Part shown: positions 1,108 to 38,773 of the stretch, one piece after another | Layout of the letters: every line of letters starts with the position of its first letter | Position numbering within the stretch: the first letter of the stretch is position 1 | NCBI GenBank assembly: GCA_023264765.1 | Contig: JAHFVC010000002.1 | Location: 1-57,447 of the forward strand | Source of the DNA: Mycobacterium sp. | GTDB taxonomy: Bacteria > Actinomycetota > Actinomycetes > Mycobacteriales > Mycobacteriaceae | Direction: 5' to 3' | Length of the DNA stretch: 57,447 nt | Translations under genes and position numbers: made by a program | Notes under the pieces: model-generated | Seen by the model: only the letters and a program-made list of their open reading frames with translations | What the model was told of the DNA's origin: nothing | The model's database searches: none

Positions 1108-1554
1108 ATGGACACGATTGCAGGGCTCCCGGCTCACCCGCTTTTCGTGCACGCCATCGTCGTGCTGGTGCCGCTCGTGGCGCTCTTGGAAATGCTCTGC
1201 GCGGTGTGGCCCGCCGCGCGGGAGCGTCTGGTGTGGCTGGTGTTGGCGCTGGCCGCCGTGACAGCTGCGTTGACGCCGTTGACCGTCGAGGCGGGGGAGT
1301 CGCTGATCGCGTCGTTCCCGAAGCCCACGGCGGTGCTGCAGGAGCATGCCGAACGGGGCGACTGGATGCCGTACATCGCCGTCGCCCTGCTGGTGGTGGC
1401 GGTGCTGCTGGCGCTGCTGCACTGGCGGTCCAGCCGCGGCCGCGGGGTGGCTGCCGTGGTGGCGGTGATCGCGCTGGTGGTCGGCGTGGCGGCGATCATC
1501 GCGGTGATCAGGGTCGGCGATTCGGGGGCACGGGCGGTGTGGGGTGGGGGTTAG
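1108..1554 (+). CDS. DUF2231-like four-TM membrane protein
   Basis: Starts MDTIAGLPAHPLFVHAIVVL; contains the AGE...HAERG motif and four hydrophobic segments. The ATG at 1108 is preferred over the ORF-track start. Confidence 0.75.
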   Translation: MDTIAGLPAHPLFVHAIVVLVPLVALLEMLCAVWPAARERLVWLVLALAAVTAALTPLTVEAGESLIASFPKPTAVLQEHAERGDWMPYIAVALLVVAVLLALLHWRSSRGRGVAAVVAVIALVVGVAAIIAVIRVGDSGARAVWGGG

Positions 1555-1644
1555 TCCCTGCGACGCGGAATGAATTCGGACCATAGTCCGTTTGCATGAG
1601 GTGAGGGTGTCGGGACGGCCGGCACCGAAAATCTAGGAGACCTC

Positions 1645-2193
1645 ATGACCGCAGCTGTAGCCACCGACCTGACCGCAGGCACCTGGGCCCTGGACCCCGT
1701 GCACTCCTCGGTCAACTTCTCCGTGCGCCACCTGGTGGTGAGCAAGGTTCGCGGTACGTTCGACAACTTCACCGGCGCGATCGTCGTCGCCGAGGACGGC
1801 ACTCCGTCGGTCACCGCGACCATCGACGTCAACTCCGTCAACACCCGTAACGAGCAGCGCGACGCGCACCTCAAGGCTGCCGATTTCTTCGACACCGAGC
1901 AGTTCCCGACGGCCACCTTCGCATCGACTTCCGTGCGTGCCGACGGCAACGACTACGTGCTGGACGGCGACTTCACCCTCAAGGGTGTCACCAAGCCGGT
2001 TTCGCTCAAGCTGGAGTTCAACGGTGTGAACCCCGGCATGGGGCACGGCGCCGTGGCCGGCTTCGAGGCGTCGGTCGTGTTGAACCGCAAGGACTTCGGC
2101 ATCAGCTTCGATGCACCCCTGGAGACCGGTGGAGCCGTCGTGGGGGACAAGGTGACGATCACGCTGGAGATCGAGGCGCTGCGCCAGGACTGA
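1645..2193 (+). CDS. YceI family polyisoprenoid-binding protein
   Basis: Motifs GTWALDPVHSSVNFSVRH, RDAHLKAADFFD, GDFTLKGVTKPV and NRKDFG. RBS AGGAG. Confidence 0.92.
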   Translation: MTAAVATDLTAGTWALDPVHSSVNFSVRHLVVSKVRGTFDNFTGAIVVAEDGTPSVTATIDVNSVNTRNEQRDAHLKAADFFDTEQFPTATFASTSVRADGNDYVLDGDFTLKGVTKPVSLKLEFNGVNPGMGHGAVAGFEASVVLNRKDFGISFDAPLETGGAVVGDKVTITLEIEALRQD

Positions 2194-2211
2194 GATAAGT
2201 ATTCACGATGA

Positions 2212-2247
2212 GCGGGTGCCACCCTATTGGTTGAGAGTGGCACCCGC
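2212..2247. terminator. Hairpin between convergent yceI and the giant gene
   Basis: 11-bp stem GCGGGTGCCAC ... GTGGCACCCGC. Confidence 0.65.
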
Positions 2248-2273
2248 GCAAGGTGCATTCAGTAATTGGTTGA

Positions 2274-5200
2274 TTAAGCGCCACCACCGGCTTGACGCAA
2301 GTCGTTCTTTACGGCCGTCCAAGCGGAATCCGTCGAGGCGTCGAATTGTGATCCAATGAGGATGTAGGTCGCGCGGTCGGTGTGAACGTTGATCGCATAA
2401 GTGTTTGATCCGACACCTGGCGGCACTTGAAATGGCGATTCGAGGACAACGCCGCCACTTCCGACATAGACCAGTCCGGCGTTGAAGTTGTTGTTCACTA
2501 CGCCGGTGAAGTCGTTGACGATGTTGAATGCTGCCATCGGCGGTACGGGGTCGGCCGGGTCGATGACGTGAACGGTGTGCACTCCAGGGATTGGGTTTTG
2601 CACGATGGGCGAGGCGAAGGTGATCAACGTCGTGACGTTATAGCCCAAGGAATTTGCGGCGGCTGCGACGTTCTGAGCATCCATACCGCCTTGGCTGTAA
2701 CCAATCAGAATGATCGGAGTGTCAGCATCGACACCGTTCAGTAGAGTCGCGGCCTTCCGTTGAATCAACCAGGCATTAGCTGCAGCGAGGCCCGCAGGTG
2801 ACGAGGCAGCCCCCTCCAGATACCACTGCGATGCTCCGGAAGCGTCAATCTGAGGTATCTCGTCATCGATTCCTAGCGCGGTGTCGATCGCGGCAACTTG
2901 CCATGGCTTTGGAGTGCCGTTGATGCCGATGAGATTTGTCAGGATGGGCTGGTTTCCATCCACCCAGCTGCTTGTGGTGCCGCCGAAGTACACGAAGAGA
3001 CGAGTTACGCTATCGGTGCCAACGACTCTTTCGATCACGATTCCGTCGCTATCGGCATCGGTGACGTCTCGTAGATGGTCGTACAGGCGACTCAGGGCCG
3101 TTGGCGAGGGACTTCCGTTTGACCCGGTAGTTGCAGTGCCCGTTCCATTTGCCTTCGCGTTGCCGCCGAAGCCTCCAACGCCTTGACGCATTAGATAGTC
3201 GGCCTTGGTTTGAGCCGAAGCGTTGGCCGCAGGGGTGTCGTAGGGAAGGCCGCCGTCACCACCTGCGCCGCCGGCGGCATTCTTCCTTCCGAGTGTCGTG
3301 GCATCGCCGCCGTGTCCTCCGTCGCCGCCGTAGTACCCTCGACCGCCAGCGCCTCCACGCCCGCCCGTGGCGGATGCGGTTGATGGACCGTTGCTGTCAC
3401 TGGTGCTGGCCCAGCCTCCGGCCCCACCCGATCCGCCGTGTGAACCAATGCCAGTTGTATTGCCGCCCGCGCCGCCAGCGCCGCCGGTTGCGCTGCCGGT
3501 GCCGTCGTTGCGGGCGTAGCCGCCGGCTCCGCCGGTACCTGCTGACGTGTTGCTGCCGTTGCCGTCAGCGCCGGAGCCGCCAGCTCCTCCAACAACATTC
3601 CCGGAACCTGAGGTTGAAGCGCTCCCGCCGTAGCCGCCGCTGCCGCCGGTGATTCCGCTACCCCCGCGCCCGCCGGCACCGCCGGTCGCAGACACCGTAG
3701 AGGCGGAGTTGACGATGGCAACGTCGCCACCATTGCCGCCGGTACCACCGAGCCCTGATGTGGTGTTCGCGCCGTTGCCGCCAGTACCACCGACGACACT
3801 TCCCTTTCCGGCAGTAGAAGCGTCACCGCCACTCCCGCCGTTGCCTGCGAGTGTCGATCCGGTCGCGCCGTCACCGCCCTGGCCGCCGATAGCGGAAGCT
3901 GTTGAGCTGCTGTTGTTTTGGATAGTGGCGTTACCGCCATCTCCGCCACTGCCGCCGTATCCGCCTTGGGTGTCGGAACCGCCCCTGCCTCCGGTCCCAC
4001 CGACAGCGCCGCCAGTGCCATACGCGTATGCGTTGCCCCCGGAGCCGCCGTCGCCACCGTGCTGCCCGTTGCCGGCTGCGCCATTCTGGCCGTTTCCACC
4101 TGTGGCGTTGCCTGATCCGTAGTTGTATGCGTTACCGCCCGAACCTCCGTCACCGCTGCCGGACCGGCTGTCGACGGTGCCAATGCCGCCTGTACCGCCG
4201 ACAGCGTTTGCGTGCGATCCAGCATTCAAGATGTAGGCGTCGCCGCCTCGCCCGCCATCGACTCCGCCGTAATAATTCACGCTGGAAGAGGTCTGACCGC
4301 CGCTGGCTCCTCCGTCCCCGCCTGTACCGCCGATGGCCGTTACCGTGGAGTTAGCGTTGTCGATGCGGGTGTCTCCGCCGCGTCCTCCGGCCCCGCCCGA
4401 GGTGCTGCCGTAACCGCCCGTTCCGCCGCGTCCGGCGGTCGGATTGGTAGTTCCTTGTGTCTTGACGTCTCCGCCGCGACCCCCTGCGCCGCCGTAGACG
4501 CCGGAACCGCCGGTGCCTCCGTTGCCAGCAATTGCTATGCCACTGGCAGTGAAAGCGCTTCCTCCGTTACCACCGCCGCCTCCGCGGAGCGTACCGCTGG
4601 TTCCTGCTCCACCGCTGCCCGCGTATGCGGCTCCCTTCCCGTAGTTATTGGCATTGCCTCCGGCTCCACCGGCGCCACCATTCGTTCCCGAGCCGCCCAT
4701 GCCCCCACGCCCGCCGACGGCATCGACGGTGGAGTTGACGTTGTTGATGGTGGTATTGCCGCCGGTACCGCCGGTACCGCCGGTACCGGTAGAAGCCGAG
4801 CCTCCGTTACCGCCTGTGCCGGCGGCGAGATTGCCTAGGCCGCTGTTGGCGGACGATCCCCCTGCGCCTCCGTCCCCGCCGTTGGCGCCGTTGCCGCCGT
4901 TGCCGCCGGTTCCGCCGGTGGCGGTTTGGGTGGAGGTGGTGTTGTTGATGTTGGCGGCCCCGCCGTCTCCGCCGCGGCCGCCGTAGGCGTTGGTGGTGTT
5001 GGTGGTGGCGTTGCCGCCGGTTCCGCCGGTGCCTGCGGTGAGTTGGCCTAGTCCGTAGGTGTTGGCGGTGCCGCCGTTGCCTCCGTCGCCGCCACCGGTG
5101 GTGCCGTCACCGCCACGCCCACCGGCTCCGGCGGTCGCTTTCCCGGTCGAGGTGGTGTTGGTGTAGTTGCCGTAGGTGCCGCCGTTGGTCTGTTGGTAGT

Positions 5201-8200
5201 AGCCGATGTAGGCGTTGCCGCCGGTTCCGCCGGAGCCGCCGTAGCCGCCGGCGGTGTTGGTGCCGCCGGCTGCTCCGTTGGCGGCGGTGGCGTTGCCGGT
5301 GCCGGAGTTGAAGGCGTCTCCGCCGCCACCACCAGTGCCGCCGAATCCGCTGACACCTCCCACTCCAGCCACTCCGGCGGTGCCGCCGGTGGCGGTGCCG
5401 GATCCGCGGTTGGAGGCGTCTCCGCCGGTGCCGCCGGTGCCGCTGCCGTAGCCGGTGCGGGTGCCTACGGTGGTGGTTCCGCCGGTGCCGCCGGTTCCGC
5501 CGATGGCGTCGGCGGTGGCAGTGGTGTTGTCGATGTAGGCGGCCCCGCCGGTGCCGCCGTTGCCGCCACCGCTGGTGGCGGTGCCGTAGTTGGGGTCGTA
5601 GCCGCCGGTGGTGCCGTCGCCGCCGTCACCACCTCGGGCGCCTCGGGCGGTGTTGGTGTTGATGGCGTTGTTGATTTGGGCGTAGCCGCCGTTGCCGCCG
5701 CGCCCACCGGCGAAGGTGAGCCCGTCCCCGCCGTCGCCGCCGGTTCCGGCGTTGACTTGTCCGGTTCCGGTGGTCGAGGCGTAGCCGCCGTAGCCGCCGC
5801 TGCCGCCGTAAGCGCCGGTGGCCCCGGCGCCGCCGGCTCCGCCGGTGGCTGTGGCGGTGGAGGCATTGTTTTCGATTCGGGCGTAGCCGCCGGATCCGCC
5901 TGCTCCGCCGTAGCCGTAGCGGCTGCCGGTGTTGGAGGCTGCGGTGCCGTCTCGGCCGTAAGCGCCGGTGGCGTTGCCGGTTCCGTAGTTGATGGCGTTA
6001 CCGCCGGATCCTCCGTATCCGCCTGCGGCGCCGGTGCCTCCGACCCCACCCAATGCGCCGACGGCGTTTCCGCTGCCGTAGTTGGTGGCCGAGCCGCCGG
6101 TGCCGCCGCCGCCACCGGAGTAGGCGCTGCTGGTGATGGTGGAGCTGCCGTTGCCGCCGTTGCCGCCGGTTCCGCCGGTGGCGGTTTGGGTGGAGGTGGT
6201 GTTGTTGATGTTGGCGGCCCCGCCGTCTCCGCCGCGGCCGCCGTAGGCGTTGGTGGTGTTGGTGGTGGCGTTGCCGCCGGTTCCGCCGGTGCCTGCGGTG
6301 AGTTGGCCTAGTCCGTAGGTGTTGGCGGTGCCGCCGTTGCCTCCGTCGCCGCCACCGGTGGTGCCGTCACCGCCACGCCCACCGGCTCCGGCGGTCGCTT
6401 TCCCGGTCGAGGTAACGACGCCCACGTTGAGCGTTCCGCGACCAGGGATGTACGCGGTACCTCCGATTTGGGCGGCACCTCCCGAACCACCTGCTCCGCC
6501 AACCCCAGCGGTGTTGGTGGCGCCAGCCGCACCGGCGCCACCGACGGCGTTGCCGGTGCCCAAGGTATAGGCGGCCCCACCGGAACCGCCCACACCGCCC
6601 GAAGTTCCAGCGCTTCCCCCGGCGCCTCCGTAGGCGCTACCAGGGCCGGTGCTGACTGCGTCTCCACCGGTGCCGCCGGAGCCCCCGGTCGGATGCGATG
6701 AGTTTCCGGCTGCACCGGCGCCGCCGTCGCCACCACGAACATCACCCGTCGACAGCGCACCGCTGGCACCTGCGACCCCAGCCACGCCACCGGTGCCACC
6801 GGTACCGGCTCTGCCCCCGCCGCCTCCGGCTCCGGCAGTGCCTGCAACGCCGCTGAAACCGCCATCGCCGCCGGCACCGTCACGGCCGCCGGATCCGGTC
6901 TTGCCCCACACGCCTGCCGTACCGGCGCCGCCATTGCCAGCAGACCCGGCAGTTCCGCCTTTGCCGCCGGCGCCACCGGCGCCATTCACGCCCAGATGGC
7001 CCGACCCGCCCGCCGCGACACCGCCAGCATTACCGCCAGCTCCACCACTTCCACCGGTACCGCCGTTGCCGCCGCTGCCACCTGTACCGCCGGCTCCGTT
7101 GCTGGTGCCCGCGATGCCGGTAGCTCCGGCCGCTCCGGTGCCACCAACGCCGCCGGAACCGCCTCTGCCGCCCAGCCCACCGGCACCGCCGTTACCCGAC
7201 ACTGAACCACCAAGTCCGCCTTGACCGCCGACGCCTCCAGCTCCACCGGTGCCACCCGTACCGCCGGCGCCACCCGAAACTGTCGCCGTAGCACCGGCCA
7301 CACCGAGCCCTCCGGTGCCACCCGCACCGCCAGCCCCACCGTCGCCGATCGCCCCCGCATCGCCGCCGCGGCCCCCGGAACCACCGGCCTGACCTGAAAG
7401 ACCAACGCCACCTATACCGCCCGCTCCACCGTCGCCGCGGAGTTGGCCGCCATGCCCGCCGGCGCCGCCCGCTTGGCCTGCGAGCCCGGCGCCACCATCG
7501 CCGCCGTCACCGATCAGCTCGGCGTCACCACCCCGCCCGCCGTTGAAACCGTCACCGCCGTCGCCGATCAGTGCGCTCCCGCCGCCATTACATGCGGCGG
7601 CCGCAGAGCACGATGCAGCCGTATAGCTGAATCCGTCGCCGAACAACAGCCCCGCGTTGGCATGTCCGGCAGTGCCGTTGGCGATCAGTACACCGGCGTG
7701 TCCGACCGAAGCCCCGACGCCGTCGTAGTCGTCGATGCGGCTGCTGAGGGCATCGTTGATGGTGCCTTGCCCGGATGCCGCAGCGAATGTGTGATCGGCG
7801 AAAACGGTCCCGGTAGCGGCGTCGATGACCGTCACCACGCCGTGGGCGTCGCCGCCATCCAGTGCCAGCCCGTTGACATAGATCCGACTACCGTCCGCGC
7901 TGACGCCGATATTCGAAAGCGGTCCGGGTGTCTGGAACGTATCGACGGCGATGGACTTCGAGATGGTGTTCGTTGCCGTATTGATCACGTGCACAACACC
8001 TATCGCGGCACTGTCATTGATGGCATCGAGAAGGGTGTCACCGACGGTGTAGACGTCGTCGCCGGGCAGATTGACCGCACTGACGAAGAGGTGCTGGCCG
8101 TCGGCACTGACCACGAGACCGGTGGGCAGCTCGGCGGTGCTTAGCTTCTTCGTCACGACGTAGGTGTGACCGTCGATGACGTAAACAGCGCCCTTGACCT

Positions 8201-11200
8201 GTGAGTTGGATTCAGCCACATATGCGCTGGCGTAGACGTGATTGCCGTCCTGGCTGACCGCGATTCCGGTGAGTACTTCCTGCTGATCGGGACTGTCGAT
8301 ATCAACAGTGGCCACAACGGCGTTCGTCGTGGCGTCGATAACGTAGACAGCCCCCCGAACGTTCGCGTTTCCGTCGGTGCCATCGGTCGCGAGGTACGCG
8401 CTCGCGAAGATGTGCAGGCTGTCCGAACTGACGGCAATCGCCGTGATGACTTCTTGGTCGGCATTCCCGACGGGAATGGTCCCGATCACCGTATTCGTGG
8501 TGGTGCTGATCACCTTGATCGCCGTCTGCGTATGCGTGCCGCTGTCGACGGTCGTGGTGGCGTACACGCGCTTACCGTCGGGGCTGACCGCGAGATAGGA
8601 CAGGCCAACCGGATAGTCCGACTGTGCCGAGTTCGGCTGGTACGCAGCACCTATGGCAATTGCCGCGAGTTCGGTATTGGTGGCGGTGTCGATAACGTGG
8701 ACGGTCGGCTGCACCTGGGTGCCGTTGAAGTAGCTGGTGGCATAGACACGGGTGCCATCCGGACTCACCGCAACACCGATGACGCCGTTGTAGGGAGAAT
8801 CCGGGCCGATTGCGATGGTAGTGATGGTCGCGTTGGTCTTCGCATCGATGACGAACACCGCTGGAGCATCACCGAACCCGCTGCCGGCATAGATCCGCTT
8901 TCCGTCGGAACTGACTGCGATGGTGGTGGGCAGCTTGTCGCCGAGATCGATGCTGTGATCGTCAGGGTTGGCCACGGTGGGGGAGATGGTCAACGACACT
9001 GCGCGAACCGTCGTTCCGCCTTTACTGTCGCTGACGGTGACGGTGAAGCCGTCGGTGGTCGGTCCACCCGCCGCGGCAGCCTGTCGCGCCGCGACTGACG
9101 GTGTATACGTGAACTGGCGGGTGGCCGGGTCGAAGGTGAAACTATCGGCCCGGGAGGGCATTTGGGTGATGGTGAAGGTCAACGGGTCGCCGTCGACATC
9201 GGTAGCGTCGACGTGTCCGGAGACCGTTCCGGTTGATGAATCTGGGTTGCCGACCGTCGCATTCACCACCGGCGCGTGATTGGTGGGAGTGGGGGAGACG
9301 GCCACCTTGACGCTGATGGTGCCCGTTCCGCCGTGGCTGTCGGTGTAGGTGACAGTCAGGGTGTCGGCTTTGGTGGCAGCGCTGGCTCCGGCTTTGGCGG
9401 CGTTGTCCCTGGCCGTTTGGGTAGGTGTGTAGGTCAGCACATTGCCGGTGACGGTGTAGTTGCCCTTGGTGGTGGACCCGTTGCCGAATATCACGGTGTC
9501 ACCGTCGATGTCTGCGGCCTTGAGTGTGACGACAACAGTCCCGGAGTTGGTATCGGGTTGGGCGACAACAGCCGTCACGGTCGGCTTGGTGTTCTTGGGG
9601 CTGATGGTCACTGTGATCGGTACGTCGAGTACCCCGCCGTGCCCGTCGTCGACGGTGACGGTGAAGCTGTCCGACGCCGCCCCGCCGGCGGCGTCATGTC
9701 GTGCCGCGGGTGTGGGGGTGTAGGTGTAGGCGCCCTTGGTGGTGATGGTGACGGCTCCGAGAGTCGCGGCGCTGACGGTGTAGGTGAGGGTGTCTTTGTC
9801 CTTGTCGGTAGCTGTCACGCTGCCGGTGACGACGCCGGTGGTCGAATTCGGTTTGCCGACAGTGTGTTTCTCGGTGGGGTCGACATTCGAAGGCAGGATG
9901 TCGACAGTGATGCTGCGGTAGATGATGCCGCGCCGACCGTCGTCGATGGTGACGGTGAAGGCGTCGCTGGTTGCGCCGGACGCGGCAGCATTGTGGCGTG
10001 CCGCCGCAGTAGGCGTATAGGTGAACGTGCCATCGGCGTTGAGGACGACGGTGCCGTTGGCGGGTTTGGTGGCGGTGATACTGAGCTTGTCGCCGTCATT
10101 GTCGTGGACTGTGACACTTCCGGTGACCACGCCGGCACTGGTCGGAGCGTTAACCGTCTGGCTGACCACAATGGGGAACTGGTTCAGCGGGGCAAGTGCA
10201 ATGAATTGCAGCCCGTCGGCGGTCAGTGTGTAGGCCTGCTGCCCGTCGGGTGAAATCGCGAACCCACCGAGAACGCCTGCGCTGGAATCGAACCCGGCAT
10301 AAGTGGCCAGTGTCTTGGCGTCCACGACAGAGATGCCTTCGTTGCCGCTGACCAGCAACAGGGTGCCGTCTTTGTTGACAGTCAAAGCCGACGGCGTTTG
10401 ATCGAGGGTGGTAAAGCCGACCACGGTGTACTTGGCGGTCTCTACCGAGTAGATCGTGGCGTCACTGCCGCTGACGTAGAGTCGCGTACCGTCCGAGCTG
10501 ACTGCGATCGCCAGGGGCAAGCTGCCGACCCCGTTGATCTGCGTGGCCTTGGAAGAACTGGAAGCGAAAGCGAAGACGTGGCCGGTCAGGGTCTCGCCGG
10601 TGACCGGATCCACTTGCGGGGAAGCGACGTAGATCTTCTTCCCGTCGGGGCTGACCATGATGCTCAGCGGCAAGGTCCCCACGTTGGATACGGTTCCGCT
10701 GGCTTTGAGGCTGCTCGTCGAGATCTTGGTGACCGTGCCCGCGACATAGTTGCCCTTCGCGTCCTTGGCCGGTTGGCCGTTGGAGTCCAGATAGGCGGTG
10801 CCGACGTAGATGGTCTTTCCATCCGGGCTCAAGACCAGAGCTGTAGGCGTCTTGTCGTCCAATGCAATGGTTTTGGTGATCGCACCGGTTACCGTGTCGA
10901 CGACGACGACACTGTGGCCGGTGAAGTTCGCGACGTAGAGCTTCGCGCCGTCTGGGCTCGCGGCGATACCGGTCGGCTTGCCCCCGATGGTGATCGGGTC
11001 GAGCAGAACACCCCGAATGGTGTCGATGACGGAAATCGTGCCGTCGCTCCAATTAGTCACGTAGGCGCGGGTATTGGTGACGGCCACATCGAATCCGCCG
11101 CCCGTACCGGTGGGAATAACACCCGTCGCGGACACCGAGACCGCGCTGATCGGAACGGTAACCTGCACCGGGGCAGTGGTTTTCCCGTCGGAGACGGTGA

Positions 11201-13415
11201 CACTGAATACCGCGGTAGTCGCCGCCGGGTTCAGTCCGGCCAGCACCCGTTGAGCCGCGGTGGGGGTGTAGGTGAACGCTCCCGTCGTTTTGTTGAAGGT
11301 GAAGGTGCCACCGGCCGGGCCACTGATCAGCGTGTACGTGAGTTTTTTGCCGGTGGCGTCGGTGACGGTTCCGCTGACCGAGCCGGTGACTGGGTTGGGG
11401 GTGCCGACGACAGGCGCAGGTATGGCGCGGGTAGTGCCCGCGGCCGCCAGCGAGACGACCTGCAGCGTGCCGTTGTCGGCGACGTAGCTGTATTCCCTAC
11501 CGTCGGGGGACATCACACCGACGGGGTGGTACCCGTCGGTGCGCACTCCGGTGGAGACCACCTTGATCGCGCCGCCGTAGTTCCCGCCGCTCGTCAGGTC
11601 GAACGCCACCACGGCGTTGATGTCGGTGTAGACCGCCACGAGCACCGACCCGTCGCCACTGATCGTGATACCGCCCAGGCCACCGCCGAAGTTGGTGAAA
11701 TCACCAGCCACGGCGTTGGTCGTGGTATCGAACGCCACGATCTTCCCGGCACCCGCGTCGTTGACGTACAGGCGCTTTCCGTCTGGGCTGATCGCCGACT
11801 CGACGAAGTTCTCCCCCTGAGCGACCAGGGTTGCGGACTTGGCCGTCGAGGTGAAAGTGAACAAGCCGGTACCCGCGGGCGGACCGCCCGGCGTCGTAGC
11901 CAGCGTGGCAACGACGTAGACCTTCTTGCTGTCGGGGCTGACCACCAGACCGCGCAACGACGTCACGTCGCTGTCCGCGCCGGTCAGCGCCACGGTGCCG
12001 GTGACCTTGTTGGTCGACGTCGAGATCTTGGTGACCGTTGCGCCTGCAGCCCCGCCGGTCAATGCGTACAACGTCTTGCCGTCGGCGCTGACGGTAAGTC
12101 CACCAAGATCGCGATCCTGCAATTGGATATACGAGGTGATCCCGTTGGTCGCGGTGTTCACCACCGTAATCGCGCTCGAACTCGCGGTGGTGACGTAGAG
12201 CTTCTTGCCGTCCGGCGTCAGCGCGGAACCCACGGCCGGACTGTCCAGTGTGATGGTGCCGATGACGGCGCGTTGAACGGTGTCGATGACCGTGATGGTG
12301 TTGTCACCGGAATTCCGCACGTAGGCACGGGTATTGGACACCACTACCCCGGATCCGGCGCTACCGAACTCGACGGTCCCGGCATCGCTGAGTGACAGGG
12401 GCGAGATGGGTACGTCCACGGACTGCTCGACGGTGTTGACCCCGTCGGAGACCCTAACGGTGAGGGTGGCGACCTGCGCTCCGGTGCCCACTGCGGAAAG
12501 GATCCGCTGCACGGCGGTGGGGGTGTAGGTGAAAGCCGCGGATTTGGTGTTGAACACCAGTCCGGGCGGCGCCGAACCGACCACCGCGTAGGTCAACTTC
12601 TTCTTCTCGGGGTCGATTGCGGTGAGCTTGCCCGTCACCACCCCGGTGTCAGGGTTGGGCGATCCCATCGTGGTGGTTACCACGGGGGCCAGGTTCGCCG
12701 CCGCCGCCGTCACCAGAGGCTGTGACGTCAACCTCTGCGCCGCCGGCACCGACTCCGTTCCGGCGTCCGACCCGATCTGGCGCCGAGCCGCAGCCAACAA
12801 GACCCATTCGGCGGGGGACTGCACCGGCACATCCGTGCCCGGTGCCACCAGCGGCGAGGTCAACGTCTCGAGCACCGCCGCCCCGGTGCCGGTGGCGGCC
12901 GAGGCCTTGACTTCGGGGACCGGATCGGGTGCGACCGTCTGGTTGGAGACCGTACTGACGGGGGAAGCCACACTCGGGCTCACGGTGTGGGCCGGCTTCG
13001 GTTCCGGCACTGACGGCGTCTCGTCGGTGGCGGGCTTGGAGGCCTTTGGTGTCGAGCTGGTATTCGCTGCTGATGCGGTGGACGCCTCCTTCCGGGTGGT
13101 CTTGCGTTTCGGCACATGGATCGTGGATCTCGTGGTCTTACTCGGACGCGAGGGCGACGACGAGGTCGATACTCCAGGCTCAGCGGCGGCAGCGTCTGAC
13201 GCGGCCGGTGTCGTCGATGTGGGATCGCTTGCCCTGTCCGCTGTCGACGGAGCCTCTGCGCCGGCAGAGGAGCTCGAGCCCCCCGATGTCGTCGATGACG
13301 TCGAGGAGTCAGTGTCGGTCGGTTGCGCCCACGCTGGAACTGCGGCGACTGCGGATCCGATTCCGAGCGCTACTGCCAACGCTCCGACGCGGCCCACGTA
13401 CCTAGCTGATCCCAT
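2274..13415 (-). CDS. Giant secreted/surface protein (~3713 aa): signal peptide, Ig-like (Big_9/VCBS-type) repeats, YVTN beta-propellers, PGRS-like Gly-rich region, C-terminal alpha/beta hydrolase
   Basis: Uninterrupted ORF. ATG at 13415 follows RBS AAAGGAG. Signal peptide [20 protein letters not shown]...PAWA. Six YTP(T/S) Ig-type repeats, SPDGKxxYV blades, GGxGGxGG repeats, and GYSQGG at 2685-2702. Confidence 0.88.
4887..5153. repeat. 267-bp exact direct repeat, copy A (in-frame, 89 codons) in the Gly-rich region
   Basis: Identical line by line to 6147-6413 (offset 1260 bp). Confidence 0.92.
6147..6413. repeat. 267-bp exact direct repeat, copy B
   Basis: Identical to 4887-5153. Confidence 0.92.
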
Positions 13416-13720
13416 TGCTGCACTCCTTTGCTGGACGCAAAGAAGCATGCTGAGTCCCGAGGGAACAACACGCACGCAGCCGGCGCCCAACTTCACAGTC
13501 ATCGTCCACAAGTAGGTGGCACCGGCTGCGAATGGCTTGGGTATCACCTGGTAACGCGCCGAACATTAGCAGAGAAAGTATGTGCGTATGGGCCCAAATC
13601 CGACGTCAATTTTGATTGCTGAACTCACATCACCTTGCGGTTTTTCGGGCAATACGCCGTTCGGGGGACAAATTCGGCTCGGAAGTATCTGTCAGGCGGG
13701 CCGAAGCTCTCTCCTCGCGC

Positions 13721-13783
13721 CCCGCGAGCGTCCGCAAAATGCCACCAGATGCGGCGTGTTGCTGTGCAAACACGGCCGCTCGC
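13721..13783. repeat. REP-like palindromic intergenic repeat, copy 2 (inverted relative to copy 1)
   Basis: CCCGCGAGCGTCCGCAAAATGCCAC...GTGCAAACACGGCCGCTCGC is the reverse complement of copy 1 with a few mismatches. Confidence 0.8.
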
Positions 13784-13799
13784 CAAAGGAAAAGGACCC

Positions 13800-16360
<2,561 letters not shown>

Positions 16361-16391
16361 GGCGGCAGCGTATGCGGTACCGATGGTTCTA

Positions 16392-16405
16392 TGCAACAAG
16401 TTGCA
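16392..16405. promoter_or_regulatory. Inverted repeat, probable PadR operator
   Basis: TGCAAC-AA-GTTGCA about 30 bp upstream of the padR start. Confidence 0.6.
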
Positions 16406-16606
16406 CTGACGTGACACTCGGGCCGCGTGGTGTCTAGTCGGGTGTATCTGCAACGGCTAGTATCAGTAACCACCGCGAGCCGGCGGCAAGTTAGGACACA
16501 CTTAGAGGCGCGCGCAGGTTGCGGCATCGCATACTTGCCGCAGACTCGAAGAGTCCCAACAGACAAATCCCGACCAGCAGCCCACTGGACGACAGGAGAG
16601 ACATCA

Positions 16607-16927
16607 GTGACGTACACCATTGCCGAACCCTGCGTTGACGTCAAAGACAAGGCGTGCATCGAAGAATGCCCTGTCGACTGCATCTACGAGGGCGCACGCA
16701 TGCTGTACATCCACCCCGATGAGTGCGTCGACTGTGGCGCCTGCGAACCGGTCTGCCCGGTCGAGGCGATCTACTACGAAGACGACGTTCCGGATCAGTG
16801 GAGTAGCTACACACAGAGCAATGCGGACTTCTTCTCCGAACTCGGTTCGCCCGGCGGCGCGTCGAAGGTCGGCCAGACCGACAACGACCCGCAGGCCGTC
16901 AAGGATCTCGAGCCCAAGGGCGAGTGA
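16607..16927 (+). CDS. fdxC: 7Fe ferredoxin
   Basis: [29 protein letters not shown]...[25 protein letters not shown]. Position matches Rv1177. Confidence 0.93.
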
Positions 16928-18030
16928 GCACGGTCCGCACCCCGAAGTCCGCGGCGCTGCCGGTATTCCCATGGGACACCTTGTCGGAGGCCGCGGCGAC
17001 CGCCCGCGCACACCCTGACGGCATCGTCGACCTCTCGGTCGGCACCCCCGTCGACGACGTCGCACCGGTGATCCGGGATGCGTTGGCCGCTGCCAGCGCG
17101 TCACCCGGCTACCCCGCCACCGCGGGTACCGCTGCGGTGCGGGCCTCCGCTCGCGAGGCTCTGCTGCGCCGCTACGGCATCACGGGGCTGGCTGAATCGG
17201 CCGTGCTGCCGGTGATCGGCACCAAGGAGCTGATCGCCTGGCTGCCGACGCTGCTGGGGCTCGGCGCCGCCGACACGGTGGTGATCCCCGAGTTGGCGTA
17301 TCCCACCTACGACGTCGGCGCGCGGCTGGCAGGTGCCCAGGTGCTGGCCGCCGATTCGCTGACGCAGCTGGGACCGCTGAACCCCGCCCTGGTGTACCTG
17401 AACTCACCGAGCAACCCCACCGGGCGGGTGCTCGGCGTCGACCACTTGCGCAAGGTGGTCGGCTGGGCGCGCGAGCGCGGCGCGATCGTCGCCTCCGACG
17501 AGTGCTACCTCGGGCTGGCCTGGGAGGCCGAACCGCTGTCCGTGTTGCATCCCTCGGTGTCCGATGGTGACCACACTGGTCTGCTGGCGGTGCATTCGTT
17601 GTCGAAGACGTCGTCACTGGCGGGTTATCGCGCGGGATTCGTCGCGGGCGATCCGGCCCTGGTGGCCGAACTGCTCGAGGTCCGCAAACATGCCGGGATG
17701 ATCGTCCCGACGCCGGTGCAGGCGGCCATGGTCGCAGCGCTGGACGACGACGCGCACGAGGCCGAGCAGCGCGAGCGCTACGCCCGTCGCCGCGAGGTGT
17801 TGTCGGCTGCTGTCCGTAAGGCGGGTTTCACCATCGACCACTCCGAGGCCGGCCTGTACCTCTGGGCGACCCGAGGGGAACCGTGCCGGGCCACCGTCGC
17901 CTGGCTGGCCGAACTCGGCATCCTGGCCGCACCCGGCGAGTTCTACGGCCCCGCCGGCGCGCAGCACGTTCGAATCGCGCTGACCGCCACGGATGAACGT
18001 ATAGACGCAGCGGTGCAGCGATTGAGCTGA
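16924..18030 (+). CDS. dapC: N-succinyldiaminopimelate aminotransferase
   Basis: PLP class I/II motifs [13 protein letters not shown] and [14 protein letters not shown]. Translationally coupled to fdxC. Confidence 0.9.
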
Positions 18031-18034
18031 CGGC

Positions 18035-18961
18035 TCAGCTCACGTCGAGGTGCTCGGGCACCACCGAAGACAATGCCTTGCGACAGGCCACGATTGCCGG
18101 GGTGCTGCTGATGGCGGCCCTCGTCGCGGTGAAGACAGAACGGCGTCGCGAATCCACGTCTACGACCCGCACGCGCGGCCGGCGGCGCACCCGCATGAGG
18201 TCCGGCAGGATCGCCACCGCGTTCCCGTTCTCGATCAATGCGATCTGGGCTTCGAGATCGTCGGTCTCGAATCGGATGTCGGGTTCGAATCCGGCTTGCC
18301 TGCACAGCTGTTCGGCCCAGTGCCGCGAGGCGGTGCCGACCGGTTCCATGGTCCACGGGAGGCCGGCGGCATCCTTCACCGACGTGATGTGACGCCAGGG
18401 GTCGCCGGTGGGCGGCACGGCGAGGCGGAGCAGGTCGGTGGTCAGCGGCTCGCGATGCAGATCGGGATACGCGCGGGCGGCGTGTCCCGGATACTCCTCG
18501 GCGATCACCAGGTCGAATTCGCGCATCCACGTCTCGTAGAGCGCTTGTTCCGGTTCGCGCTGCGACATCGTGACCCGTAGCCGGGGATGCCGCGTCGCCA
18601 GCTCGGTGAGCATCTGCGGCATGAAGGCCGACGCGGCCGACTGAAAAACGGCCAGGCGGACGGTGCCCGAGGCCTGGTCGCTCTGCACCGCGACGTCGGA
18701 GGCAGCCAGCTCGAGCCGCGCCAGGATGGCGGCGGTGTGTTCGACGAGCACCTCGGCGGCAGGGGTGAGTCGCAGGCGTCGGCCGACCTTCTCCAGAAGG
18801 GGTACCCCGACTTCTCGCTCTAGCTGGTTGAGCGCCTGGGACACCGACGACGGGCTCTGATGCAGGGCGTCGGCGACGTCGGACAGCGTCCCGCGCAGGC
18901 TCAGCTCGTAGAGCAGGCGCAGACGACGGGTGTCCAGGAGATCCGGCCGCTGATGTTTCAT
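18035..18961 (-). CDS. LysR family regulator, divergent from putA
   Basis: N-terminal HTH (SPSSVSQALNQLEREVGVPLLEKVGRRLRLT) followed by a substrate-binding domain. Confidence 0.92.
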   Translation of the reverse strand: MKHQRPDLLDTRRLRLLYELSLRGTLSDVADALHQSPSSVSQALNQLEREVGVPLLEKVGRRLRLTPAAEVLVEHTAAILARLELAASDVAVQSDQASGTVRLAVFQSAASAFMPQMLTELATRHPRLRVTMSQREPEQALYETWMREFDLVIAEEYPGHAARAYPDLHREPLTTDLLRLAVPPTGDPWRHITSVKDAAGLPWTMEPVGTASRHWAEQLCRQAGFEPDIRFETDDLEAQIALIENGNAVAILPDLMRVRRRPRVRVVDVDSRRRSVFTATRAAISSTPAIVACRKALSSVVPEHLDVS

Positions 18962-19030
18962 ATCTACTTAAGTTTTTATATCAGAAAACATCACTTTATT
19001 TTAAGGGTCTGCGGCACTCATCATGGGTAG

Positions 19031-32777: not shown

Positions 32778-34325
32778 ATGTCTATTGTCTGTTCCCATCT
32801 CTCATTCTCCTGGCCCGACAACACCCCGGTGTTCACCGACCTGTCCTTCGCTGTCGGGGCGGGGCGTACTGGTCTGGTCGCGCCCAACGGCTCCGGTAAG
32901 AGCACCCTGCTGCGGCTGATCGCCGGGGTCCTATCGCCTACGTCGGGCAGCGTGTCGGTCGACGGTGTGGTGGGCTATCTGCCGCAGGACTTGCCGTTCC
33001 TGGCTGAACAGACAGTGGCCGATGTTCTCGGTGTCACTGCGACTTTGGCGGCGCTGGACGCGCTGGCGGCCGGCGATGCGAGCGAGGCCGTGTTCGCCGC
33101 GATCGGGGATGATTGGGATATCGAGGAGCGACTGCGCGCGCAGGTGGGTGATCTCTCGCTGGACCGCGCTCTCGGCTCGCTCTCCGGTGGGCAGGTGGTG
33201 TCGCTGGGACTGACGGCGCAGCTGTTGAAGCGGCCGGACGTGCTCCTGCTCGACGAACCGACCAACAATCTGGATTCGGCTGCCCGACAACGGCTCTACT
33301 CGTCACTGGATGGCTTCGGTGGCACGTTGGTGGTGGTGAGCCACGACCGGGAACTGTTGGACCGGATGGATGCCATCGCGGAGTTGCGCGCCGGTGAGGT
33401 GTCGTTGTTCGGTGGCGGGTTCACGGCTTACGAGTCGGCCGTCGCTGCGGCACAACAAGTCGCGGAAGGAAACGTCCGCAATGCCGAACAGCAGTTGAAG
33501 CGACAGAAGCGGCAGATGCAGGAGGCGCGTGAGCGTGCTGACAAACGGGCATCGAATGCCGCGCGTAACGTCAAGGACGCCGGTCTCCCGAAAATCATTG
33601 CGGGGAAACTGAAAAGGAATGCCCAGGAGTCCGCGGCCAGGGCCGACGATGTGCACGGTCGTCGAGTGGGCGATGCGCGGTCGCGTCTGGATGAGGCCGA
33701 GCGGGCGTTGCGCGACGACGACGTGCTGGCGCTGGATCTGCCTTCTTCGGAGGTTCCTGCGGGGCGGGTGTTGTTCTCTGCGGCTGGTTTACGGTCGCTA
33801 GCGTTCGACGGTGTGGACCTGGATATCCGCGGCCCGGAGCGGATCGCGCTGACGGGGCCGAACGGGTCCGGGAAGTCGACATTGCTTCGGCTGGTGGTGG
33901 CGGGTGCGCAGGTTCCGGTGGCGTACTTGTCGCAGCGGCTGGACTTGTTGGATTCGTCGTCGACAGTGCTCGAGGCTCTGACGACATTCTCCCCGGCTCT
34001 GTCGGTGACTCGCCGGCGGCATGTGTTGGCGCAGTTCCTCTTTCATGGTGACATGGTGGATCTTCCGGTGAGTGCGCTGTCCGGTGGCGAACGGTTGCGG
34101 GCGACGCTGGCGTGCGTGTTGTTCGCCGAACCGGCACCGCAGTTGCTCTTGCTCGATGAGCCGACCAACAATCTCGACCTGGTCAGCATCGGGCAGTTGG
34201 AGTCCGCGTTGAATGCTTATCGTGGTGCGTTCGTCGTCGTCAGCCACGATGAGCGGTTCCTGGACAACATCGGAGTGCAGCGACGGTTGGTCTTGGATCA
34301 GGGCGTGCTCATGCCTTCGCCGTGA
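32778..34325 (+). CDS. ABC-F family ATPase (ribosome-associated, possibly ARE type)
   Basis: Two NBDs ([26 protein letters not shown]) joined by a long helical linker. No TM segments. Confidence 0.9.
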
Positions 34326-36609
34326 CGTCGGCTTGGGCTTCGGTGAGTAGGTCGTACTGGTGTAGCCAGTAGAGCCAGTCGGCGATGGCGGCGCGTTGGT
34401 CGGCGGTTTCGGTGGCGCTGTGGGCGCGGTAGAGCGCGAGGTCGGCGGAGTGTGCGGCGTACAGAACAAAGGCATTGAGGTGGGCGATTTCTCGTCCGCT
34501 GGCGATACTCATCAAGGGCTTCATCACGTCGAACCACAGCGTGAACGTCTCGTTGGCCGGCGGAGTGTTGTCCGCTTGGGCGGGCGGCAGTTGGGCGATG
34601 AGGTCGGCATCTCTGACCGCGGCCAATTTGGTTGCGGCGTCGGGGGACAGGATCTCCAGACGGGTACGGCCGGTCATCTTGCCGCTCGGCGGGATGTCGT
34701 CGTCCTCAAGCAGCACCTTGTGCGCCCCGGGGTCGATGCCTTCGAGATGGGTCTTCGCGCCGATCACTGCGCGCAGCGTCTTTTCATGCGCCTGAGCCCA
34801 AGCTGTCAGCGCGGCAACGGGGTAGGTCGCCCAGCGAGCCCGCTCGGTGGGAGGAATCGACGTATCGGCGCTGGCCATCTTCACCTGCTCGGGCAGGTTC
34901 ACCCCGTCGGGAATGTAAGCGATGCCGTAGCTGTTGGCGACGACGATCGTGTCGTCGGCGGTGAGTCCGACCAGCCAGAAGAAGCCGATGTCGTTGAGGC
35001 GCGACATGTCAGGTGCGTTCAGTGCGGCAGCGATCCGGCGAGCCACGCTCAATGGATCATTGCCGCCCATCTTGCGCTTCAAGGCGCCCGCTGCGGCCGA
35101 CGAGGCAATCAGGTCGCGTTCGGCGCGAGCTGTGGAGACCGGAATCGGTGCTGCCGCAGCCCCTCCGGGTTGGGCGTTGTTCGTGGCCGCGGGTAGGACG
35201 GGTGGTCCTGCCGCTGGAGCCACGGGCGCGGCCGGTGGCGGGGTGGCCGGGGCACCGAGTGGCATCGGGGGTGTCGGTGACGCGGGTGGTGCCGCGGGCG
35301 CGGACGGTGGCGCGACATTGCCGGTCGGGACAGCAGGATGTGTCGCCGCGGGTGCTGTCGGTGAACTGGCGGCTTGCTCGATGGGAGCGGCCGGCGCAGT
35401 GAGTGGTGTCGCGGGTGTCGCATTGCTCAGTGGTGCGGACGGAGGCTGGACTGGTGCCTGCATGCCCGTGGGCTTGGGACCTGTTGCGCCGGTTGCAGAT
35501 TCAGGTTTGGCAACTTGCGCGGCCTGTGGGGTTTGTGGCCCCTGAGCTGACTGGCCGGTCTGCGGGGATGTGGGGCTGCCCGGAGTGCCGCCTCCGCCGG
35601 GGGACGACATGGGTGAGGCGGGTGTGCCGCTGGGGCCGCCAGGGGTAGCGGGTAGGCCGGGCTGTCCGCTCGGACCGGGTGCAACTGGTCCTGCGGGCGC
35701 AGGTCCCGTCGGAGCGGTGGGGTGTGAGTTTGGAGGTGAGAGAGGGGCAGATGGTGCTGGTGGCGCGGCGCTGACGTCTTGGCGTCCCCCACCTAGCGGC
35801 GCCGCCGGAGGTGGATCACCCGGAGCTGGAGGGTTGACGACTGGCTTTGGTTTTGGTGCTTCGGCTACGGTGTCTTGCCTCCCGCCACCGATTGATGTCG
35901 TTTCTGTCTGGCCCGGCAAAGTCGGATTCTGTGGTGTCTCCACTGATCGCGGCGGCGCAGCCGAAGGCACTTGGCGAAGCCCACTAAGCCCAGTCGGGGG
36001 AATAGGCGGTTGGCCAGGTGTTGGCGTCGCCGGGGCTGGCTGGTCCCCGGCAGCGGGAAGATGCTGACGAAGCAGTTGATCCACTGCGTTAGCAGGTGGT
36101 TTCCACGTGTTAGTCGACGGAACCTGCGCACTCGTGCTTGCTATGACGCCTAGGTTAAGTGCGTGGTATGTGTTGACCACATTGTCGATCGCTTGCTTCC
36201 TGCTGTCGGCAGTGTCGTTTGGCTCGTTCGAGGCTTCTATCTCTGCGATCAACTCTTGAGCTTCTCGCACGTTGTTGGTTATGAGCGTCTTCGCGTTCAC
36301 CACCATGCCGGCGGCGTGGCTGTTCCATGTTGCGGCCGCCACGAGGTAATTCTGCAGTTGGGAGAACGCAACGGCATACGTTCCAGCCTTGCCGCTCGCG
36401 GCGCCAGCTGCACTCCCGATCCACACCCCGCCGTCAAATGTCTGATTGCGCTCGCGCGCCCAAGGCTCTGCAGATCTGAAAGTGAGTTCTTGCAGTGCTC
36501 GGGTACACGCAGTTGCGCAGTCGTAAAGGGAGTCTTCGTCGACATCAGGCCACGCGCCTGGAGAAAGTAGTCGGTCCGCGTATGGGCCGCCCGGCCGGCC
36601 TATGCCCAT
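34309..36609 (-). CDS. EspK-like type VII secretion-associated protein
   Basis: N-terminus [22 protein letters not shown] with WIG (WxG) and WKPP. Pro-rich linker. C-terminus [31 protein letters not shown] resembles Rv3879c as recalled. Confidence 0.85.
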
Positions 36610-36612
36610 CGG

Positions 36613-38489: not shown

Positions 38490-38773
38490 GACCGTGCATT
38501 CCGTCGGACATCACCCGAACCCCCGAGATCCCCACGACTCGGCACGGCGCCACGGCCTCAAATAGCATCGATATTCCCCTCCGCATGCCTCAGCTAAGAC
38601 AGTACCCAACCTAGGAGGGGCTTCACTGCACAACATTCCGGCGTCTTCGCAGCTCAACAATGGCTCCACTGGGGCCTCATCTGTTTGCTGCGAATACGCC
38701 TACCAGTAAGACGCAGAAGGTGAACGGCACGGCACCGAGCTCATCTGCTCTGCCAGAACAGCATTGGAACGGC

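What the first reader, a model, noticed from the sequence alone, without database searches (positions are those of the whole stretch)
2274..13415. Giant mosaic surface protein: Ig/beta-propeller body + PE-less PGRS-like stalk + serine-hydrolase tip
Seen: a single ~3713-aa ORF ordered signal peptide, Ser/Thr/Pro linker, Ig1, propeller 1, Ig2, propeller 2, Ig3-6, propeller 3, ~1500-aa GGxGGxGG region (~3130-7700), then a ~280-aa alpha/beta hydrolase. Known: classical PGRS domains follow PE domains and are exported by ESX-5 in slow growers, and M. tuberculosis has the small Rv1174c in the fbiC-fadH interval. Inference: this is a Sec-type adhesin that displays an enzyme at the end of a long polyglycine rod (contact-dependent lipase/toxin or biofilm enzyme). 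I do not recognise this architecture as characterised.
Basis: partly seen in the sequence, partly recalled or inferred. Interest (0 to 1): 0.8.

Follow-up and report, generated by a model that had tools for sequence, protein, structure and literature searches.

The report
Giant stalked lipase with swappable tip
A mycobacterium encodes one protein of at least 3,713 residues with Ig and propeller domains, a glycine-rich stalk predicted to fold into a ribbon and likely longer than assembled, and a predicted lipase whose family also occurs on likely type VII secretion cargo, a combination I found in three other assemblies but in none of the papers my searches returned.

Summary
The ORF is real (minus strand, 13415-2274, 3713 aa) and the domain order is as reported. 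Public contigs bridge body-to-stalk and stalk-to-tip, and the same order occurs in three other assemblies (P0017, G207, G343), so it is not a chimera. Three corrections. (1) The stalk is predicted to fold as a polyproline-II/beta ribbon (pLDDT 93), not an extended rod. (2) A 1260-nt unit in the stalk is probably a collapsed tandem array, so the true protein is likely longer. (3) The tip belongs to a class-3-lipase-like Ser-Asp-His family carried mostly by stalk-less Ig/propeller proteins and by WXG100 proteins of FHA-EccC Esx clusters. There it lies beside a DUF6777 membrane-protein gene (18 of 19 short ORFs), which is never beside the long carriers (0 of 28) and was not found in this genome. 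Paralogues with the same leader or body end in other enzymes. Best reading: a likely Sec-exported surface protein presenting a lipid esterase on a length-variable spacer; a partner-free toxin is the minority reading. Export, expression and activity are untested. New variant of a known kind; interest 0.5.

The parts
13326..13415 (-). Leader, residues 1-30: conserved [13 protein letters not shown] motif, hydrophobic core, AWA-Q; predicted Sec signal peptide
   Evidence: Hydropathy peak 1.99 at residue 10; related leaders on 12 ORFs of this genome by pattern; RBS upstream
12696..13325 (-). Ser/Thr/Pro/Ala-rich linker, residues 31-240
   Evidence: Composition; no Pfam or NCBIfam family
11436..12695 (-). 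Ig domain 1 and beta-propeller 1, residues 241-660
   Evidence: TYTP at 295; propeller families
10191..11435 (-). Ig domain 2 and beta-propeller 2, residues 661-1075
   Evidence: TYTP at 714; 71-79% DNA repeats with Ig1/propeller 1 at about 1.3 kb spacing
8961..10190 (-). Ig domains 3-6 (Big_9/cadherin-like), residues 1076-1485
   Evidence: Big_9 E 3e-34, four stretches
7761..8960 (-). Beta-propeller 3, residues 1486-1885, a subtype shared with other stalk-bearing proteins
   Evidence: 66% identical to P0017 and 63% to the G207 protein
6666..7760 (-). PGRS-like entry segment with two Cys (1936, 1942) and classical Gly-Gly-X repeats, residues 1886-2250
   Evidence: Pfam PGRS below cut-off; entry segment 73-74% identical to P0017 and G207
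3126..6665 (-). Polyproline-II/beta ribbon stalk, residues 2251-3430, period about 34 residues
   Evidence: Model of residues 3126-3395: pLDDT 92.8, pTM 0.88; best match PPII bundle 7jjv, Z 15.7, rmsd 1.8, 124 aligned; spacing
4887..6413 (-). 1260-nt (420-aa) unit plus a 267-nt identical partial copy; probably a collapsed tandem array
   Evidence: over-represented in runs X2, X3, X5, X6; simulations
2274..3122 (-). Class-3-lipase-like alpha/beta hydrolase tip, residues 3432-3713; predicted triad Ser3574, Asp3622, His3678
   Evidence: Invariant in 19 of 19 aligned sequences; model pLDDT 77.6; Z 11.7 to 1uwc and 2qua
2195..2275 (.). Strong hairpin between this gene's stop and convergent yceI; likely a shared terminator
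   Evidence: -34.5 kcal/mol, z -6.6, 0 of 200 shuffles as stable

Best explanation
This is a likely Sec-exported modular surface protein whose Ig and propeller domains would bind it to a surface, while a glycine-rich stalk, predicted to fold as a stiff ribbon and likely variable in length, would hold a predicted lipase away from that anchor to hydrolyse lipid esters. Shown: the reading frame, domain order, conserved triad, recurrence of the order in three other assemblies, exchange of tips between carriers, and lack of a partner gene. Predicted: the two folds. Inferred: Sec export, surface retention (no lipobox, LPxTG or second hydrophobic helix was found, so the anchor is unknown), binding by the body, the multi-copy stalk unit, and a feeding or surface-modifying role on outside lipids such as glycerides, phospholipids or waxy esters.
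For: Single N-terminal hydrophobic stretch with AWA-Q, and no YxxxD/E, WxG or twin-Arg motif near the N-terminus. Triad invariant in 19 of 19; a GxSxG motif in 149 of 149 best relatives. The top 13 structural matches are lipases, a feruloyl esterase, phospholipase A1 and EDS1-type lipase folds, Z 9.6-11.7; profile hits to cutinase and Burkholderia lipases. Paralogues in this genome with a related leader or body end in a PecA-type aspartic protease, an M4 peptidase, a beta-helix, an Abhydrolase_3 or a GH5 after a PGRS repeat, mostly degradative enzymes. 13 of 400 genus genomes carry the tip only in long ORFs and none of the 13 has a DUF6777 match. Same order in P0017 (3960 aa), G207 (4929-aa frame, two tips) and G343 (3162-aa frame).
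Against: No expression, export or activity data. The tip's relatives include WXG100 proteins in Esx clusters (24 of 149), which points to a conflict role for the family. Residues 88-125 of the tip model are low-confidence, so the substrate pocket is not modelled. Tip identity to solved enzymes is only 12-19%. Only 270 of about 1,480 stalk residues were modelled, with an alignment of repeats. How a protein over 350 kDa would cross the mycomembrane after Sec export is unexplained.
Confidence: 0.5

Rival explanations
1. Partner-free weapon: the tip is an Esx-effector-type phospholipase moved onto a Sec-type carrier and held out on the stalk to damage membranes of cells that touch the bacterium (competitors, Saccharibacteria epibionts or grazers); distance or the mycomembrane, not an immunity protein, would protect the producer.
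For: Same domain on WXG100 proteins in FHA-EccC clusters with WXG100-CHAP neighbours. DUF6777 adjacent to 18 of 19 short tip ORFs and 0 of 28 long ones. Tips are exchanged between carriers; patchy distribution, 32 of 400 genomes. Precedents: lipase toxin TslA with immunity lipoprotein (PMC10730906, abstract); Esx defence against epibionts with a glycine-rich effector (PMC13622651, sections 7 and 9).
Against: No partner gene here. DUF6777 is more conserved than the lipase (63% against 42% mean column identity), lies upstream in some clusters and occurs in 51 of 400 genomes, many without the tip, so it may be an Esx component and not immunity. In the tree the window's tip groups with stalk-less Ig/propeller carriers (97/97), not with WXG100 carriers.
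Confidence: 0.2
2. Sail model: the glycine-rich part lies along the outer membrane as proposed for PE_PGRS proteins and ferries the esterase over the cell's own envelope, remodelling its lipids; it is not a projecting spacer.
For: PMC9436101 (main text read) proposes flat PGII sails that ship C-terminal enzymes such as PecA. The stalk model is a PPII bundle. A PecA-type domain and a PGRS-GH5 protein occur in this genome on related carriers.
Against: That model needs an edge rich in Phe/Trp; residues 2251-3430 hold 0.5% Phe+Trp, although two PE-less PGRS controls hold only 1.3-1.6%, so this is weak. Most tips of this family sit on bodies with no glycine-rich part (74 against 4 of 149).
Confidence: 0.2
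3. The gene is a recent recombinant with little function, or its middle is mis-assembled so that body and tip belong to different genes.
For: Not found at this site in 12 of 12 relative loci; the yceI-fadH gap is 80-844 nt in the 5 with the same arrangement, against 11.6 kb here. No listed contig spans the repeat. A G036 relative ends just after the PGRS entry.
Against: Open frame over 11 kb with RBS, intact triad and terminator. X1 contigs cover 2074-4916 and 6384-12939 with 0 and 1 differences and end 30 bases inside the two repeat copies; the unit occurs nowhere else in the assembly. The same order occurs in three other assemblies.
Confidence: 0.07

Closest known systems
PE_PGRS proteins with an enzymatic C-terminal domain (PE_PGRS35/PecA) and LipY
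   Same: Gly-Gly-X repeats predicted as a PPII bundle, followed by a unique C-terminal enzyme. LipY's lipase domain is reported behind a PE domain, a PPE domain or a signal peptide depending on species (PMC7550000, passages), the same tag exchange seen here.
   Different: No PE domain, no literal GRPLI; signal-peptide-type leader; a 1,650-aa Ig/propeller body before the repeats; most of the stalk has beta-bridging spacers nearly absent from two classical PGRS controls (2.6 against 0.1-0.2 motifs per 100 aa); the tip is class-3-lipase-like.
PGRS proteins of non-pathogenic Mycolicibacterium
   Same: PMC11939664 (section 2.2 read) reports PGRS-domain proteins in M. smegmatis and relatives whose PE domain and localisation are unsettled.
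   Different: That section describes neither the leader family, the Ig/propeller body, the hydrolase tip nor the beta-bridged stalk.
Type VII lipase toxins (TslA with immunity TilA) and mycobacterial Esx toxins (EatA with EatI)
   Same: Lipase-type domain on a helical type VII tag with an adjacent membrane-protein gene describes the WXG100-carried relatives of the tip (PMC10730906 abstract; PMC13444075 passages).
   Different: This protein has no WXG/LXG tag and no partner gene. Homology of the tip to TslA was not tested.
YVTN/Big_9 'Ig-like domain-containing' proteins of mycobacteria
   Same: Same leader, linker, Ig and propeller modules; about a dozen paralogues in this genome; databases name them only by domain.
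   Different: Adds a stalk of about 1,480 aa; in this assembly it alone has the long stalk and this tip.
Family I.3 lipases (Serratia LipA) and the MARTX alpha/beta-hydrolase domain
   Same: Lipase joined to glycine-rich repeats (recalled); LipA is a joint top structural match, Z 11.7, rmsd 4.6, 208 aligned.
   Different: RTX beta-rolls and type I secretion (recalled) against a PPII ribbon and a Sec-type leader; 12% identity; the MARTX match was marginal (E 0.008).

Membership tests
PE_PGRS | N-terminal PE domain | tested here: not met
   No PE match in P0001 or at this ORF among 10 PF00934 matches in the genome
PE_PGRS | GRPLI linker motif | tested here: not met
   The corresponding stretch reads GVLIANG; PF21526 scores 17.1 and 19.8 bits against a cut-off of 27
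PE_PGRS | Gly-Gly-Ala/Gly-Gly-X repeat region | tested here: met
   38-50% Gly over residues 1946-3430
PE_PGRS | Polyglycine-II sandwich fold | tested here: met
   Predicted only, 270 residues: pLDDT 92.8, best match PPII bundle 7jjv, Z 15.7, rmsd 1.8, 124 aligned
PE_PGRS | Export by ESX-5 | not testable with these tools
   No YxxxD/E in the first 120 residues and no WxG in the first 150; export itself needs an experiment
Class 3 lipase-like serine hydrolase | GxSxG nucleophile elbow and Ser-Asp-His triad | tested here: met
   Ser, Asp and His invariant in 19 of 19; triad geometry in the model was not measured
Class 3 lipase-like serine hydrolase | Lipase-type alpha/beta-hydrolase fold | tested here: met
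   1uwc Z 11.7, rmsd 3.7, 173 aligned; top 13 rows are lipase-type folds
Class 3 lipase-like serine hydrolase | Pfam Lipase_3 membership | tested here: inconclusive
   No Lipase_3 match for this tip; PGAP1 24.9 bits against cut-off 24.3; Atlas look-alikes of homologue P0004 carry PGAP1, Lipase_3 and Abhydrolase_8
Class 3 lipase-like serine hydrolase | Ester hydrolysis | not testable with these tools
   Needs an assay
Polymorphic toxin / type VII lipase toxin | Exchangeable C-terminal domain on an export carrier | tested here: met
   P0017 shares 66-74% in propeller 3 and the entry segment but 31% in the tip; one clade of four stalk-borne tips rejected, p-AU 0.0001
Polymorphic toxin / type VII lipase toxin | Adjacent immunity gene | tested here: not met
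   Hairpin and convergent yceI follow the stop; no DUF6777 match in the 92%-complete genome
Polymorphic toxin / type VII lipase toxin | WXG100/LXG helical tag | tested here: not met
   No such Pfam or NCBIfam match in P0001; present on relatives
Polymorphic toxin / type VII lipase toxin | Toxicity to target cells | not testable with these tools
   Needs an experiment
YVTN/Big_9 secreted modular proteins of mycobacteria | Conserved leader, Ser/Thr/Pro linker, Big_9 Ig repeats and YVTN propellers | tested here: met
YVTN/Big_9 secreted modular proteins of mycobacteria | Signal peptide cleaved and protein exported by Sec | tested here: inconclusive
   Hydropathy and AxA motif only; no SignalP, no experiment

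The most novel reading that the evidence does not exclude
Non-ESX-5 mycobacteria run a signal-peptide counterpart of the PE_PGRS system: a conserved leader carrying shuffled Ig, propeller and PGRS modules and exchangeable enzyme tips. This member carries an Esx-effector-type lipase on a polyproline-II/beta ribbon whose length is set by a 1260-bp tandem array, giving an adjustable-reach, immunity-free contact weapon against epibionts or competitors.
Probability: 0.17. Interest if true: 0.82.

Novelty: new variant of a known kind. Interest (0 to 1): 0.5.

Why it matters
How PGRS-bearing proteins of non-pathogenic mycobacteria are exported and what they do is described as unsettled (PMC11939664, section 2.2). 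This gene and its paralogues give a testable answer: a shared signal-type leader stands where PE stands in slow growers, and carries the same kind of cargo (PGRS repeats, a PecA-type protease, lipases). It also defines a lipase family shared between likely Esx substrates and likely Sec carriers, with DUF6777 tracking only the former, and a predicted hybrid PPII/beta ribbon small enough per repeat for structure determination. Practically, it shows a short-read assembly likely under-reporting the length of a giant gene. If the tip proves a plain nutritional lipase, it is one unusual member of a large, already annotated class.

Tried and rejected
Complex prediction of a WXG100-carried tip with its DUF6777 neighbour gave no answer (runs 0.00, 0.52, 0.10); not used either way. 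No RNA holder was listed; not evidence on expression. Run X4 has no listed cover over the repeat unit, X7 shows no excess there and X8 only partial pieces; X1's unit contig was not among the half of that run that was read, so the most direct depth ratio is missing. The 6146-to-4887 joint by itself proves nothing, since 255 letters fit either side. An excised 1260-bp circle was considered; it should not outnumber the chromosome. GC bias was considered; neighbouring stalk DNA of 68-75% GC is not enriched in X5 or X6. A near-length search with the tip found nothing among 2123 candidates although P0017 exists, so that search is insensitive. ORF 1953-2258 was rejected as a partner gene: it overlaps yceI antisense, runs through the hairpin and has no family match. 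The MARTX hit was marginal and not confirmed by structure search. No PGRS structure was listed in the fold searches, which excludes nothing. Rfam found nothing in the window. Earlier findings of the scan: none. Literature searches with no paper; some searches listed papers, none of whose titles or abstract openings describe this architecture. The library omits most subscription papers, and I read no supplements (S1 Table of PMC9436101 lists C-terminal domains of PE_PGRS and may bear on novelty).
Full report
Observation. The window is contig C112 of a 6.7-Mb, 586-contig, 92%-complete genome. The minus strand holds one frame from ATG 13415 to stop 2274, 3713 aa, between fadH upstream and a convergent yceI, with fbiC beyond. 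AAAGGAG precedes the ATG and a strong hairpin follows the stop (z -6.6). The order is leader (1-30), Ser/Thr/Pro linker, Ig1, propeller 1, Ig2, propeller 2, Ig3-6, propeller 3, glycine-rich region (about 1946-3430) and a 282-aa hydrolase. Named relatives of the tip are mostly Mycolicibacterium or Mycobacterium; that the host is a rapid grower is my inference.

Is the assembly right? In run X1, which may be the source, one contig covers 2074-4916 with no difference and one covers 6384-12939 with one. They bridge tip to stalk and stalk to body, and both end 30 bases inside a 267-nt exact repeat (4887-5153 = 6147-6413). The same order occurs in P0017, 3960 aa, in a 4929-aa frame of G207 with two stalk-plus-tip blocks and in a 3162-aa frame of G343. 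A chimera is unlikely.

The length is probably wrong. Runs X5 and X6 (one study) each hold the 1260-nt unit as a closed 1290-nt contig at depth 4.8 and 5.0 with no differences, and their share of words over 2300-9500 is 0.18, about the unit alone. X6 also has two short exact pieces elsewhere at depth 2. In X2 and X3 the unit contig has depth 5.2 and 6.0 against 2.5-3.9 and 2.5-3.1 for the other listed pieces. In a simple simulation with one copy, 0 of 4000 draws at each of ten settings gave a complete unit with 5% or less of the rest. So four of the eight runs laid, from three studies, one of them the study of the possible source, point to several copies. The tool warns that contig depth is no copy number, and my simulation ignores library bias; I estimate three or more copies but cannot fix the number. 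Each extra copy adds 420 residues in frame.

The stalk. Residues 1946-2250 are classical Gly-Gly-X repeats. Residues 2251-3430 alternate such runs with Ser/Thr/Asn/Tyr-rich spacers at a period near 34. A model of residues 3126-3395, from 13 aligned repeats, has pLDDT 92.8 and pTM 0.88 with a short strand each period. Its best match is a polyproline-II bundle (7jjv, Z 15.7, rmsd 1.8, 124 aligned), well above the beta-solenoids that follow at Z 10.5 or less. The spacer motifs occur at 1.3-2.6 per 100 residues in the stalks of P0001, P0017, G207, G343 and L051, against 0.1-0.2 in two PE-less classical PGRS proteins. At 0.48 nm per turn (recalled beta spacing) the assembled part would be about 17 nm, plus 6 nm per extra unit. 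It is thus a folded ribbon, closer to the PGRS sail of PMC9436101 (main text read) than to an extended rod.

The tip. Nineteen aligned members keep Ser, Asp and His invariant. The model (pLDDT 77.6; residues 88-125 poor) matches lipase-type folds in its top 13 rows, best Z 11.7. The family is found in 32 of 400 genus genomes and has 169 representatives at E 1e-30. Of the best 150, I dropped one repetitive false hit; of 149, 74 sit on Ig/propeller bodies without glycine repeats, 24 on WXG100-like N-termini, 4 on proteins with glycine repeats, 31 on other and 16 on short sequences, and 142 are C-terminal. The long-stalk form is therefore rare and the stalk-less form common. Tips move between carriers: P0017 is 66% and 74% identical in propeller 3 and the entry segment but 31% in the tip. 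The careful tree joins this tip and P0002 to stalk-less L030 and P0003 at 97/97, and one clade of four stalk-borne tips is rejected (p-AU 0.0001, simpler model, 28 rows; the group was named after I had seen). The trees are unrooted, so no donor is claimed.

The Esx link. In the four clusters mapped that show it whole or split, WXG100-carried tips lie behind an FHA-bearing FtsK/EccC gene and a small WXG100 gene, often near vWA, PP2C and kinase genes. A DUF6777 gene with an N-terminal hydrophobic helix is in the locus of 10 of 13 WXG100 carriers and 0 of 20 other carriers among named loci, and within 2 kb of 18 of 19 short tip ORFs and 0 of 28 long ones in the genus sample; the two sets overlap, kin are not independent, and only some short ORFs were checked for WXG100. 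None of the 13 genomes with only long carriers, this one included, has a DUF6777 match, and this genome's best match to that EccC is 26%. Whether DUF6777 is immunity is open: it is more conserved than the lipase and no paper in the library names it.

The carrier family. Twelve ORFs of this genome match the leader patterns. Of eight paralogues scanned, ends include a PecA-type protease (E 3e-93), an M4 peptidase, a beta-helix, an Abhydrolase_3, a GH5 after a PGRS repeat, DUF1214, a propeller, and one without a family; the first two ORFs are cut at contig ends, so their leaders were not seen. The gene was not found in 12 of 12 yceI loci of relatives; five keep yceI and fadH convergent, 80-844 nt apart, so it is a lineage-specific insertion or loss elsewhere.

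Mechanism. Most likely (0.5) the leader sends the chain through Sec, the body binds a surface, and the ribbon spaces a lipid esterase from it; only sequence features are shown. A partner-free weapon (0.2) rests on the Esx link, with precedents in PMC10730906 (abstract), PMC13444075 (passages) and PMC13622651 (abstract, sections 7 and 9). A sail on the cell's own envelope (0.2) rests on PMC9436101. Artefact or decay is 0.07.

Comparison and verdict. It is not a PE_PGRS (no PE, no GRPLI) nor a member of a toxin-immunity system (no tag, no partner), though it works like a PE_PGRS with an enzyme tip. The principles are known: tag exchange on LipY (PMC7550000, passages) and PGRS domains in non-pathogens with unsettled export (PMC11939664, section 2.2 and passages). 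The combination, the tip family's dual carriage, the beta-bridged stalk and the probable array were not found in ten searches of an open-licence library. New variant of a known kind; interest 0.5.

Noticed in passing
L046:4984-16044, L049:4828-15664, L038, L057, L052: Conserved Esx-like cluster: FHA-FtsK/EccC, WXG100, WXG100-lipase, DUF6777, often WXG100-CHAP and a vWA-PP2C-kinase trio on the other strand. DUF6777 returned no paper in the library.
   Followed up: partly
L124:5354-19999 (G207:C7): A 4929-aa frame with two hydrolase domains of this family, only 29% identical to each other, each behind its own glycine-rich block; suggests cassette addition.
   Followed up: partly
L058:3866-10618; L127:2590-9846; L128:5836-13371; L145:229-2817: PE-less PGRS proteins behind signal-type leaders, one ending in this tip, one in GH5, one with propellers between PGRS blocks.
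   Followed up: partly
L141:325-3048 (G000:C64): Ig/YVTN body ending in a PecA-family aspartic protease domain (NF038019 E 3e-93), with no PGRS; N-terminus cut by the contig end.
   Followed up: partly
window 34309-39499, minus strand: Four-gene ESX-type group away from any EccC gene: EspC-like (PF10824 E 9e-16), PE-like (E 2e-4), a membrane-anchored protein, and a 766-aa proline-rich protein that looks EspK-like by eye.
   Followed up: no
window 1500-19000 against runs X1-X8: Near-identical DNA (0-3 differences per piece) in runs recorded as groundwater, soil, wastewater and rhizosphere at low depth; a widespread strain or a shared laboratory-water contaminant would both fit.
   Followed up: no
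L053:770-10495: Two neighbouring long genes, each ending in a tip of this family.
   Followed up: no
window 13326-13415: The leader is conserved in sequence across paralogues and species, unusual for ordinary Sec signals (recalled); it may be read by a dedicated factor.
   Followed up: partly
L126:40-3102 (G036:C42): Relative with the same leader and propeller 3 whose frame ends just after the PGRS entry near the contig region fetched; truncated or mis-assembled.
   Followed up: no
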